IMG/VR virus record: IMGVR_UViG_2913182230_000001
Location: 1-42,074 of that record
Reading direction: 5' to 3' (one strand)
Length of the DNA stretch: 42,074 nt
Source of the DNA: a virus
Taxonomy: Duplodnaviria > Heunggongvirae > Uroviricota > Caudoviricetes
Made by a program: the position numbers. Shown here piece after piece: positions 18,001 to 21,000 of the stretch. Within the stretch, counting starts at the first letter, position 1. Each line of letters starts with the position of its first letter.

Positions 18001-21000
18001 TCACTGATTACTCCGATCACCCTCGCAAACTTGTCACGCTAAACCCCAAACTCAAATCAACAGCCGCCGGACGTTACCAGCTTCTTTCCCGTTGGTGGGA
18101 TGCCTACCGTAAGCAGCTTGGCCTGAAAGACTTCTCTCCGAAAAGCCAGGGCGCTGTGGCATTGCAGCAGATTAAGGAGCGTGGCGCTTTACCGATGATT
18201 GATCGCGGTGATATCCGTCAGGCAATCGACCGTTGCAGCAATATCTGGGCTTCACTGCCGGGGGCTGGTTATGGTCAGTTCGAGCATAAGGCTGACAGCC
18301 TGATTGCAAAATTCAAAGAGGCTGGCGGAACGATCAGAGAGATTGAGGTATGAGCAGAGTAACCGCGATTATCTCCGCTCTGGTTATTTGTATCATCGCC
18401 TGCCTGTCATGGGCTGTTAATCATTACCGTGATAACGCCATCGCCTACAAAGAGCAGCGCGATAAGGCCGCATCCATCATCGCTGACATGCAGAAGCGTC
18501 AACGTGATGTAGCAGAACTCGACGCCAGATACACAAAGGAGCTTGCTGATGCTAACGCGACTATCGAAAGTCTCCGTGCTGATGTTTCTGCTGGTCGTAA
18601 GCGCCTGCAAGTCGCCGCCACCTGTGCAAAGTCAACGACCGGAGCCAGCAGCATGGGCGATGGAGAAAGCCCAAGACTTACAGCAGATGCTGAACTCAAT
18701 TATTACCGTCTCCGAAGTGGAATCGACAAGATAACCGCGCAGGTTAACTACCTGCAGGAATACATCAGGACTCAGTGCCTTCGATGATAGCGATAATTTT
18801 ACTCATCCGCGTTCTCAGTCTTGCCATGGCGACACGTCTCCGGAAGATGGGTTATCAGGAGAAAGTGTTGTCCATTGTTTTCAAAGTGAAAAGCGCGGGA
18901 TTCCGACGACAGAAGCGCCAATTCCGACAATCCGATCACGGATTCCGACGGAGCGCCAAATCTGGCCGGAACAAATCGGAATTCGTGGTCGAATTAAATC
19001 GGAAAGTGCGATCGGATTACATCGGAATCAATGGTCGATTTGGGTCGGAATACGCAGCGTTGAGATAAGAGCCAGTTCATTACATAGCTATATCTAATGG
19101 AGCCTGAAATAATTTGTCATTGTCATGACAACAAAATTCATTAATGATGGGCTCTCATTATACGGGAGGTAGATATGGCATTTCGTTATTTTGAACTTAC
19201 AGAAAATATTCCTTTTGAGGATGCAAGAGAGCTTCACGTACAGTTCAAACACCACTTAGAACATGTTGTAAAGGCGTCATTTATGCCAGGAACACATGAA
19301 AAGCATTTAATTGTTGAAGGCCGGGATGACGAATCGATAACACAGATATTTGGTGGGCATGATGAAAAGTTTATACATCTTTATCACATCGATGAAATGA
19401 AAAACGTGAATACTTAATCTAACCTCCTACGGCTGTTTTTTATTGCCATTACAAAAGCCATTCCCTACAGAGTGGCTTTGATAATGGCTTATACCTTACA
19501 CGGGATAACTTAACTGATATCCCTTTTAACGGATAAACGGAGCACAAATAATGGCAAAGCTCACCGACAAACAAGAGCTGTTTGCCCGTGAGTACCTGAA
19601 AGATCTGAATGGAACACAGGCAGCTATCAGGGCGGGCTACAGCGAGAAGACCGCCAATGAGCAGGCATCTCGATTATTAGCAAATGTTAATGTTCAAAAA
19701 TTCGTTGCTGAACTTAAATCCGCCCGCGTTGAGCAGACGGGTATAGATGCCGCCTATGTTCTTCGTAGGTTGGTTGAAATCGACCAGATGGATGTGCTCG
19801 ACATTCTCCTGCAAAACGGTGAGCTAAAGCCCATTAAAGACTGGCCTAAGGTATGGCGCACAACGTTATCAGGAATGGATGTTGTGGAGATGGTATCCGC
19901 AGATAGTGCAGCACTCCTGAAGAAAATCAAATGGCCTGATAAGGTTAAAAACCTCGAACTTCTTGGTAAGCATGTTTCTGTTCAGGCGTTTAAAGACAAC
20001 GTCAAAAATGAAGTGACTGGCGCTGATGGAGGACCAGTCAGAACAGAAATTACCAACTTAACGCCAGAGCAGGCTGCAGAGGCGTATAGAAAAATGATGG
20101 GCTAAGTATGCCGTTACCATTCCCCTTCGATTTTAAACATCCTGATTACCAGATGGTTTTTGAATGGCGGATGGAACGCCTACAGCGCATTCGCCAGAAT
20201 CCTGAAATATTGCCCGTATTGAAGCAGTTTTACCGAACCAATCCGGCTCAGTTCATCATCGACTGGGGCATGACAACGGACCCGCGTAATATTGATTATG
20301 GCCTGCCGGTGACCATTCCGTTTTTACTCTTCCCTAAGCAGGAGGAGTGGATCCACTGGATTATGGAACGCTGGAGCAATCGGGAGAATGGTATTACCGA
20401 AAAATCCCGTGAAATGGGGCTCAGTTGGACCGCGATCGGACTGGCCTGCTCGCTTTGTCTCTTCAACAAAGAAATGGTTATCGGTTTCGGCTCCCGTAAA
20501 GAGGAATACGTCGACAGTACCGGTGACCCGAAAGCATTGTTCTGGAAGGCGCGCAAGTTCGTGGAAACAGTACCTGTAGAGTTTCGCGGTTCGTGGAGCG
20601 AGAAGAAGCACGCGCCATATATGCGTGTTGAGTTTCCTGAAACTGGTGCCGTTATCAAAGGCGAGGCTGGCGATAATATTGGTCGTGGTGACCGTACCAC
20701 GCTTTATCTGGTTGATGAGGCTGCATTCCTTCAGCGCCCTCTGCTGATTGATGCGGCGTTGTCACAAACGACGCGTTGCCGTATCGACCTGAGTTCAGTT
20801 AACGGCATGGCTAACCCGTTCGCTCAGAAGCGTCATGGCGGGAAGATACCGGTATTCACATTCCACTGGCGGGATGATCCTCGCAAGGATGAAGAGTGGT
20901 ATCGCAGGGAATGCGAGAAAATCGATAATCCGGTGGTGGTGGCACAGGAACTTGATCTGAACTACAGCGCATCAGCGGAAGGCGTCCTGATTCCATCCGA

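What the first reader, a model, noticed from the sequence alone, without database searches (positions are those of the whole stretch)
19114..19417. AT-rich small gene preceded by a three half-site palindrome
TTGTCA TTGTCA TGACAA (19114-19131, with a perfect TGTCATGACA core) lies about 45 bp upstream of an 80-aa ORF of unknown function in an AT-rich segment between lysis and packaging genes. This suggests an independently regulated accessory gene under operator control.
Basis: seen in the sequence. Interest (0 to 1): 0.45.

Follow-up and report, generated by a model that had tools for sequence, protein, structure and literature searches.

The report
Prophage accessory gene with own promoter
The "palindrome" is mostly the -35 box of a conserved promoter for a small, self-contained accessory gene (a "moron") sitting between the lysis and DNA-packaging genes of a lambda-like prophage, which is an ordinary arrangement. 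The symmetric flanks that make it look like an operator occur in one E. coli lineage only.

Summary
TTGTCA TTGTCA TGACAA lies at 19114-19131, 43 bp upstream of an 80-aa ORF (19175-19417, 36% GC against 48.5% for the window), between Rz and terS.

- **The gene is real.** dN/dS is 0.06-0.2. It matches phrog_35226 and no Pfam family. It is rare, confined to Enterobacterales prophages, and always sits alone in the Rz-terS slot.
- **A promoter is conserved.** Eleven diverged lineages all keep TTGYCA, 17 nt, then nAnnAT, ending 25-28 nt before the ATG. The middle hexamer (19120-25) is therefore a -35 box and 19143-48 a -10 box.
- **The symmetry is not conserved.** The left hexamer and the right half-site occur only in the ~95%-identical E. 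coli clade. The nearest outgroups read TTGGTG TTGCCA TGCTAC.
- **The terminator has decayed.** Relatives carry a canonical terminator right after the stop codon; here its stem is lost.

The unit is a moron cassette, bounded by conserved hairpin "linkers" that also flank other accessory genes in Sf6, P22-like and HK544-like phages. Operator control is neither supported nor excluded. The 12-mer does fit the RelB relO hexad consensus, but that is a lead only. The protein has a generic ferredoxin-like fold and no assigned function.

The parts
18794..19056 (-). Solo end fragment of an IS21-family element. It holds the transposase-proximal end with terminal repeats and the first codons of istA. It sits immediately upstream of the cassette and is not part of it.
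   Evidence: 96% identity to the istA-proximal end of an IS21-family element in NZ_CP028747. Internal 23-bp-spaced repeats and GGATTCCGACG repeats.
19057..19104 (+). Upstream linker remnant. GCGTTGAGATAAG..CATTACATAGCT (19078-19089) is shared with the Sf6 gene 65/66 spacer. The hairpin found at this position in relatives carries an internal deletion here.
   Evidence: Alignments and flanks.
19105..19113 (+). A/T-rich tract just upstream of the -35 box, a possible UP-element-like sequence.
   Evidence: A/T-rich in most lineages. The UP-element role is inference only.
19114..19119 (+). Left TTGTCA hexamer, a direct repeat of the -35 box. Specific to the E. coli clade.
   Evidence: Outgroups have TTGGTG, TTGATA, TTAGTG, TCGGCG and others.
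19120..19125 (+). Middle TTGTCA hexamer, the predicted -35 box of the cassette promoter.
   Evidence: T19120 and T19121 are invariant; G19122 and C19124 are kept in 10 of 11 lineages. It is the only promoter-like site found in 18700-19600.
19126..19131 (+). Right half-site TGACAA, which completes the 12-bp palindrome. It lies in the promoter spacer and is specific to the E. coli clade.
   Evidence: Column information is 0.18-1.05 bits. Outgroups have TGCTAC, TGTTAC, TGTGAA, CCACCT.
19143..19148 (+). Predicted -10 box, AATGAT.
   Evidence: A19144, A19147 and T19148 are invariant in 11 lineages. The spacer is always 17 nt and the -10 box ends 25-28 nt before the ATG.
19164..19169 (+). Shine-Dalgarno sequence GGGAGG.
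   Evidence: A GGAGG-type motif is kept in the relatives, apart from TGAGG in L028.
19175..19417 (+). 80-aa protein gene of family phrog_35226. This copy has a 1-nt deletion after 19396 that replaces the last residues (..HIDEYVKREDLI becomes ..HIDEMKNVNT).
19423..19441 (+). Decayed intrinsic terminator, CCTCCTACGGCTG followed by T6.
   Evidence: Relatives have CCGCC-N4-GGCGG followed by T6-8, with dG of -9 to -11.5 kcal/mol. The window folds at -0.4.
19445..19488 (+). Conserved 'linker' hairpin with 7-bp and 10-bp stems: GCCATTA-CA-AAAGCCATTC...GAGTGGCTTT-GA-TAATGGC.
   Evidence: Centroid fold -24.5 kcal/mol, z = -3.8. Inverted repeat I4. Compensatory changes at 10 of 15 predicted pairs across 13 copies. 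No Rfam family.
19489..19550 (+). Conserved leader that precedes whichever gene follows the slot: terS here, a DUF2560 gene in Sf6-like phages.

Best explanation
Window 19057-19550 is a one-gene 'moron' cassette in the variable slot between the lysis genes and the packaging genes of a lambdoid prophage.

How it is built:
- It carries its own sigma-70-type promoter: -35 TTGTCA at 19120-25, a 17-nt spacer, and -10 AATGAT at 19143-48. The start of transcription is inferred at about 19155.
- A strong ribosome-binding site follows, then an 80-aa cytoplasmic protein of unknown function with a ferredoxin-like fold.
- The terminator that normally follows the gene has decayed in this copy. Next comes a conserved linker hairpin.

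What the 'three half-site palindrome' is: the -35 box, plus a direct copy to its left and an inverted copy in the spacer. Both extra copies arose on the branch leading to the E. coli clade, and the rest of the family does without them.

Expected expression (inferred): from the moron promoter in the lysogen, and additionally from the Q-antiterminated late transcript after induction.

Shown here: the anatomy, conservation of the promoter, purifying selection on the gene, and use of the same slot by other genes. Inferred: promoter activity, expression in the lysogen, and the lack of a role for the symmetric flanks.
For: - **Real gene.** dN/dS is 0.06-0.2 with dS saturated. phrog_35226 matches at E=5e-51.
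- **Conserved promoter.** TTGYCA-17-nAnnAT occurs in 10 of 11 lineages (TTTACG-17-CATAAT in L029). T19120, T19121, A19144, A19147 and T19148 are invariant, and the -10 box ends 25-28 nt before the ATG. It is the only promoter-like hit in 18700-19600.
- **Terminator in relatives.** A canonical terminator follows the stop codon in most relatives.
- **Deviant composition.** 36% GC against 48.5%.
- **Same slot, different neighbours.** The gene sits in the same slot next to at least four unrelated terminase types.
- **Other genes use the slot.** It holds gene 66 in Sf6, Rha in Gally, and a KilA-domain gene in HK544.
- **Definition of a moron:** deviant GC content plus its own promoter and terminator (PMC3594210).
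- **Symmetric flanks are clade-specific**.
Against: - No transcription data exist, and the promoter score is modest (9 of 12 consensus positions).
- The terminator is decayed in this copy, so the unit is no longer insulated.
- Relative to the nearest outgroup, 7 of the 18 motif positions differ and every difference builds the symmetric pattern. Only 7 of the next 43 nt differ (hand count; Fisher p about 0.09 by my own estimate). That is more order than simple drift predicts and leaves room for a function acquired in this lineage.
- The 12-mer also fits a known operator consensus.
Confidence: 0.62

Rival explanations
1. An operator acquired in one lineage. In the E. coli clade the promoter gained a binding site for a dimeric repressor supplied in trans by the host or another prophage. 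The site overlaps the -35 box and the spacer, so the moron is repressed until a signal arrives. The most concrete candidate is a ribbon-helix-helix antitoxin of the RelB type.
For: - The palindrome sits where a repressor would block RNA polymerase.
- The three-hexamer arrangement appeared in 0 of 200 simulations.
- The changes relative to outgroups are clustered and all build the pattern.
- The pattern WTGTMATKACAW, which is one relO half-site built from two [A/T]TGT[A/C]A hexads, matches once in the window against 0.06 expected. The relO half-sites are TTGTAATGACAT and TTGTAATTACAA (PMC2812701).
Against: - The site is not conserved outside a clade that is about 95% identical, so there is no evolutionary test.
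- relO needs four contiguous hexads. Here there are three, and the third is in direct rather than inverted orientation.
- relO overlaps the -10 box of an autoregulated toxin-antitoxin operon (PMC12301738). This site overlaps a -35 box, and no toxin-antitoxin gene is present.
- The match was noticed after the fact, among many known motifs.
- No regulator is linked to the cassette.
- The prophage's own operators are of the P22 type.
Confidence: 0.2
2. No independent promoter. The gene is simply one more late gene, read from pR' under Q antitermination. The conserved upstream hexamers would then serve some other purpose, or reflect inherited sequence.
For: - The gene lies on the late-operon strand, downstream of Q (16513-17136) and the lysis genes.
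- The terminator is decayed here.
- The promoter match is only 9 of 12.
Against: - The hexamers and their spacing survive in lineages with saturated synonymous divergence, while neighbouring positions are randomised. The invariant positions are exactly those that sigma-70 reads: TTG, and A2/T6 of the -10 box.
- A terminator directly after a single gene in most relatives only makes sense for a separate transcription unit.
Confidence: 0.12
3. Chance pattern next to a spurious ORF. Nothing here is functional.
For: 12-bp palindromes occur at the chance rate (11 observed, 11.8 expected). No Pfam, NCBIfam or PADLOC family matches.
Against: - The ORF is under strong purifying selection and is conserved across Escherichia, Enterobacter, Cedecea, Scandinavium and Serratia prophages.
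- The structure model is confident (pLDDT 81.5).
Confidence: 0.02

Closest known systems
Morons of lambdoid phages (first defined in HK97/HK022; reviewed in PMC3594210)
   Same: A single accessory gene with deviant GC content and its own promoter. In most family members it also has its own terminator. It is inserted between genes of the late operon, in a slot that holds different genes in related phages.
   Different: The product belongs to an uncharacterised family (phrog_35226). In this copy the terminator has decayed and the upstream linker hairpin is partly deleted. Expression from the repressed prophage has not been tested.
relO, the RelB/RelBE operator of E. coli (PMC2812701)
   Same: Contiguous 6-bp hexads fitting [A/T]TGT[A/C]A. 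An inverted pair forms a 12-bp palindrome (TTGTCATGACAA, compared with TTGTAATGACAT and TTGTAATTACAA).
   Different: There are three hexads rather than four, and the extra one is a direct repeat. The site overlaps a -35 box rather than a -10 box. No toxin-antitoxin operon lies downstream, and binding has not been tested. This is a resemblance only.
Other occupants of the variable slot between Rz/Rz1 and the packaging genes: Sf6 gene 66, the Rha gene of P22-like phage Gally, the KilA-domain gene of HK544
   Same: The same genomic slot and the same linker type (CATTACAAAGCC...GGCTTGATAATG hairpins). In Sf6 the linker was read on both sides of the slot.
   Different: The proteins are unrelated.
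GhoS, Cas2 and ACT-type ferredoxin-like small proteins

Membership tests
Moron (independent accessory transcription unit in a prophage) | Extra gene in a slot between genes that are otherwise adjacent or hold different cargo in related phages | tested here: met
   The slot between the gene-65-like small ORF after Rz and the linker/DUF2560/terS region holds gene 66 in Sf6, Rha in Gally, a KilA-domain gene in HK544, and this ORF here. The ORF sits next to at least four different terminase types.
Moron (independent accessory transcription unit in a prophage) | Base composition different from the surrounding genes | tested here: met
   35.8-36.7% GC against 48.5% for the window.
Moron (independent accessory transcription unit in a prophage) | Own promoter | tested here: met
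   Met at the sequence level only. TTGYCA-17-nAnnAT sits at a fixed distance from the ATG in 10 of 11 lineages (TTTACG-17-CATAAT in L029), with the sigma-70 contact positions invariant. Promoter activity was not measured.
Moron (independent accessory transcription unit in a prophage) | Own terminator | tested here: inconclusive
   Relatives have CCGCC-N4-GGCGG followed by T6-8 (dG -9 to -11.5 kcal/mol). In the window the stem has decayed (dG -0.4) although the T-run remains. A strong hairpin without a clear U-tract follows at 19445-19488.
Moron (independent accessory transcription unit in a prophage) | Expressed from the repressed prophage | not testable with these tools
   Needs RNA data from a lysogen.
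relO-type (RelB ribbon-helix-helix) operator | Inverted pair of [A/T]TGT[A/C]A hexads forming a 12-bp half-site | tested here: met
   TTGTCATGACAA fits WTGTMATKACAW. One hit in the window against 0.06 expected.
relO-type (RelB ribbon-helix-helix) operator | Two contiguous 12-bp half-sites (four hexads, no spacing) | tested here: not met
   Only three hexads are present, and the third (19114-19119) is in direct rather than inverted orientation.
relO-type (RelB ribbon-helix-helix) operator | Overlaps the -10 box of an autoregulated toxin-antitoxin operon | tested here: not met
   The site overlaps the -35 box and spacer. The downstream gene is a ferredoxin-like protein that always occurs as a single gene.
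relO-type (RelB ribbon-helix-helix) operator | Bound by RelB or RelB2E | not testable with these tools
   Needs EMSA or footprinting.
Operator of this prophage's own CI/Cro-type repressor | Sequence similarity to the operators in the immunity region | tested here: not met
   The immunity region 10845-10925 carries P22-type CTTAA..TTAAG sites. No palindrome-like site with up to 2 mismatches lies there.
phrog_35226 (uncharacterised phage protein family) | Profile match over the full length | tested here: met
   E=5.2e-51, residues 1-76 matched to profile positions 1-76 of 82.

The most novel reading that the evidence does not exclude
On the branch leading to the E. coli clade, about seven clustered substitutions rewired a constitutive moron promoter into one carrying a relO-like ribbon-helix-helix antitoxin site over its -35 box. 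Expression of this prophage accessory gene would then be coupled to a toxin-antitoxin and Lon protease stress circuit encoded elsewhere in the cell.
Probability: 0.05. Interest if true: 0.6.

Novelty: new member of a known kind. Interest (0 to 1): 0.2.

Why it matters
The finding mostly tidies up the annotation. It shows that an apparent operator is a promoter element, and it assigns an unannotated 80-aa ORF to a rare, selectively maintained prophage accessory family with moron architecture. Two points could repay a small experiment:
- What this conserved, histidine-rich, ferredoxin-like protein does for lysogens.
- Whether the symmetric sequence around the -35 box in the E. coli lineage is a newly acquired repressor site.

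The linker hairpins on both sides of the slot are a plausible route for swapping cassettes by homologous recombination.

Tried and rejected
- **Palindrome as a statistically unusual feature on its own.** Rejected: 11 perfect 12-bp palindromes in the window against 11.8 expected.
- **Conserved operator.** Rejected by the upstream alignments.
- **Operator of the prophage's own repressor.** Rejected.
- **Pho box.** From my own knowledge, PhoB sites are CTGTCAT repeats with an 11-bp period. The period here is 6 bp, so this was rejected without a formal test.
- **5'-UTR hairpin hiding the ribosome-binding site.** The fold is not better than shuffled sequence (z = -0.48).
- **A regulator encoded next to the cassette.** The small ORF after Rz is a hydrophobic peptide and is disrupted here by the IS fragment. 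No partner gene is conserved.
- **tblastn against 50,697 phage records.** No match.
- **Scan of one genome per species.** No relative found.
- **Literature search for the 12-mer.** Only an unrelated primer turned up.
- **Rfam match for the hairpin.** None; only spurious miRNA-like hits.

Full report
**Observation.** The sequence is as described. TTGTCA (19114-19119), TTGTCA (19120-19125) and TGACAA (19126-19131) lie 43 bp upstream of an ATG-initiated 80-codon ORF (19175-19417). The ORF has a GGGAGG Shine-Dalgarno sequence at 19164-19169. The segment 19058-19550 is 36.7% GC against 48.5% for the window.

A perfect 12-bp palindrome is not remarkable by itself. The window holds 11, and simulations expect 11.8 +/- 3.5. 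The X-X-rc(X) arrangement is unique in the window and was seen in 0 of 200 simulations, but that pattern was defined after the fact.

**Context.** The window is a lambdoid prophage next to a tRNA gene (1369-1441).
- The early and lysis regions are about 95% identical to Lederbergvirus and HK544-like phages. That similarity stops at 19556, just past the terS start codon at 19551.
- The gene order is Q (16513-17136), holin, endolysin, Rz (18350-18787), this segment, terS (19551, Terminase_2), terL, portal.
- Between Rz and the finding lies a 263-bp solo end of an IS21-family element (18794-19056), 96% identical to the istA-proximal end of a full copy.

**The gene is real but rare.**
- It matches phrog_35226 (E=5e-51) and nothing in Pfam, NCBIfam or PADLOC.
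- A search of 5.8 billion proteins found 15 clusters. All named sources are Enterobacterales: Escherichia, Enterobacter, Scandinavium, Cedecea, Serratia.
- A profile search of 1.8 billion representatives found only 8 hits. Four of the five I read are full-length family members; the fifth is a repeat protein.
- Pairwise dN/dS is 0.06-0.2, with synonymous sites saturated between lineages.
- At least ten of 5,426 complete E. coli genomes carry the cassette at about 95% identity. None of 50,697 deposited phage genomes does.
- The window copy has a 1-nt deletion after 19396 that rewrites the last few residues. That C-terminus varies across the family and is modelled with less confidence.

**Where it sits.** In every locus with enough flanking DNA, the gene is a single gene between the lysis cassette and the small terminase subunit. 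Its neighbours include unrelated terminase systems: Terminase_2 with Terminase_3 or Terminase_6, GpA with Nu1 or DUF1441, P27 with HNH, DUF2280, and GP3_package. No partner gene is conserved. In Sf6, Gally and HK544 the same slot holds gene 66, a Rha gene and a KilA-domain gene respectively.

**What the palindrome is.** I compared the upstream DNA of 11 distinct lineages.
- Ten carry TTGYCA, exactly 17 nt, then nAnnAT (AATGAT, GATGAT or GAATAT). L029 has TTTACG-17-CATAAT at the same position. The second hexamer ends 25-28 nt before the ATG.
- In window coordinates the invariant columns are T19120, T19121, A19144, A19147 and T19148. G19122 and C19124 are kept in 10 of 11 lineages. These are the positions that sigma-70 reads.
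- The site is also the only promoter-like hit in 18700-19600.
- Because synonymous sites between these lineages are saturated, this retention indicates selection on a promoter.
- By contrast, the right half-site (19126-19131) and most of the left hexamer are low-information columns.
- The full 18-mer occurs only in the E. coli-clade loci. The nearest outgroups, at 86-89% protein identity, read TTGGT(G/A) or TTGATA, then TTGCCA, then TGCTAC.

So the middle hexamer is a -35 box, and the symmetry is a derived state of one closely related clade.

**The 3' end and the linkers.**
- Most relatives have a textbook intrinsic terminator right after the stop codon: CCGCC-N4-GGCGG followed by T6-8, with dG of -9 to -11.5 kcal/mol. 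In the E. coli clade the stem has decayed to CCTCCTACGGCTG followed by T6, with dG of -0.4.
- A strong hairpin follows at 19445-19488 (-24.5 kcal/mol, z = -3.8), then a leader conserved in about 2,500 E. coli genomes and about 100 phages.
- The same hairpin type (CATTACAAAGCC...GGCTTGATAATG) lies upstream of the promoter in most relatives, and on both sides of the slot in Sf6.
- Across 13 copies, 10 of 15 predicted pairs show compensatory changes. It matches no Rfam family.
- In the E. coli clade the upstream copy has an internal deletion (19078-19102 is what remains).

Repeated linkers on both sides of a variable slot would let homologous recombination swap cassettes. That mechanism is my inference.

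**Could the symmetry still be an operator?**
- The prophage's own operators are of the P22 type and unrelated. Nothing similar to the palindrome lies in the immunity region.
- From memory, then checked in the literature: the RelB operator relO consists of contiguous hexads [A/T]TGT[A/C]A, forming the 12-bp half-sites TTGTAATGACAT and TTGTAATTACAA (PMC2812701).
- The window 12-mer fits that consensus at 12 of 12 positions. One hit was found against 0.06 expected, and the third hexamer fits the hexad too.
- However, relO needs four hexads and overlaps the -10 box of a toxin-antitoxin operon. This site has three hexads over a -35 box with no toxin-antitoxin gene. I treat it as a lead, not a membership.
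- Relative to L006, 7 of the 18 motif positions differ, all toward the pattern. Only 7 of the next 43 nt differ (hand count; p about 0.09 by my estimate). That is suggestive but not significant.
- One template-switch mutation at a quasi-palindrome could have created the right half-site. This is inference from known mutational mechanisms.

**Verdict.** This is an ordinary moron cassette from an uncharacterised family. The 'independent accessory gene' reading is supported by comparative evidence. The 'operator' reading is unsupported but not excluded for the E. coli lineage.

Noticed in passing
window 18794-19056: Solo end of an IS21-family element, 96% identical to the istA-proximal end of a full copy in NZ_CP028747. 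It contains 23-bp-spaced repeats and GGATTCCGACG repeats. Its inner junction falls at a 14-bp microhomology (TAATTTTACTCATC) shared by the istA start region and the start of the phage's small ORF after Rz. This suggests an IS insertion followed by a microhomology-mediated deletion. The deletion removed istA/istB and about 125 bp of phage DNA, destroying that small ORF (the counterpart of Sf6 gene 65).
   Followed up: partly
window 19445-19488 (also L035 835-872 and 1500-1545, and upstream of the gene in L005, L006, L010, L011, L012, L024, L029): Conserved 'linker' hairpin with sequence-conserved outer arms (CATTACA / GATAATG) and a covarying inner stem. It is found on both sides of the variable slot between lysis and packaging genes. 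It matches no Rfam family and is annotated as a 'terminator' in phage Ayreon. Its role is unknown: terminator, RNA processing or stability element, or recombination boundary.
   Followed up: partly
window 19423-19441: The canonical intrinsic terminator that follows this gene in most relatives has lost its stem in the whole E. coli clade, although the T-run remains. Transcripts from the moron promoter may therefore read on toward terS.
   Followed up: partly
window 19396/19397: A 1-nt deletion relative to all close relatives shifts the reading frame for the last codons of the ORF (..HIDEYVKREDLI becomes ..HIDEMKNVNT; 82 aa becomes 80 aa).
   Followed up: yes
window 19551-19556: Mosaic joint. 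Similarity to Lederbergvirus and HK544-like phages (about 95% over 2788-19556) stops a few bases into terS. From terS onward the structural module is different. Locus L038 is a relative that combines this ORF with similar-sized terS and terL genes (183-aa Terminase_2 and 540 aa).
   Followed up: partly
window 1369-1441 and 1459-2622: A tRNA gene lies directly next to a 387-codon minus-strand ORF at the left end, which I took to be the integrase without running a family search. The prophage is presumably integrated at this tRNA. The immunity region (10845-10925) has P22-type operators.
   Followed up: no
window 19105-19140: The three hexamers also form a longer imperfect dyad (16-nt arms, 75% complementary) centred on 19122/19123. 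Two overlapping symmetry axes are therefore possible.
   Followed up: no
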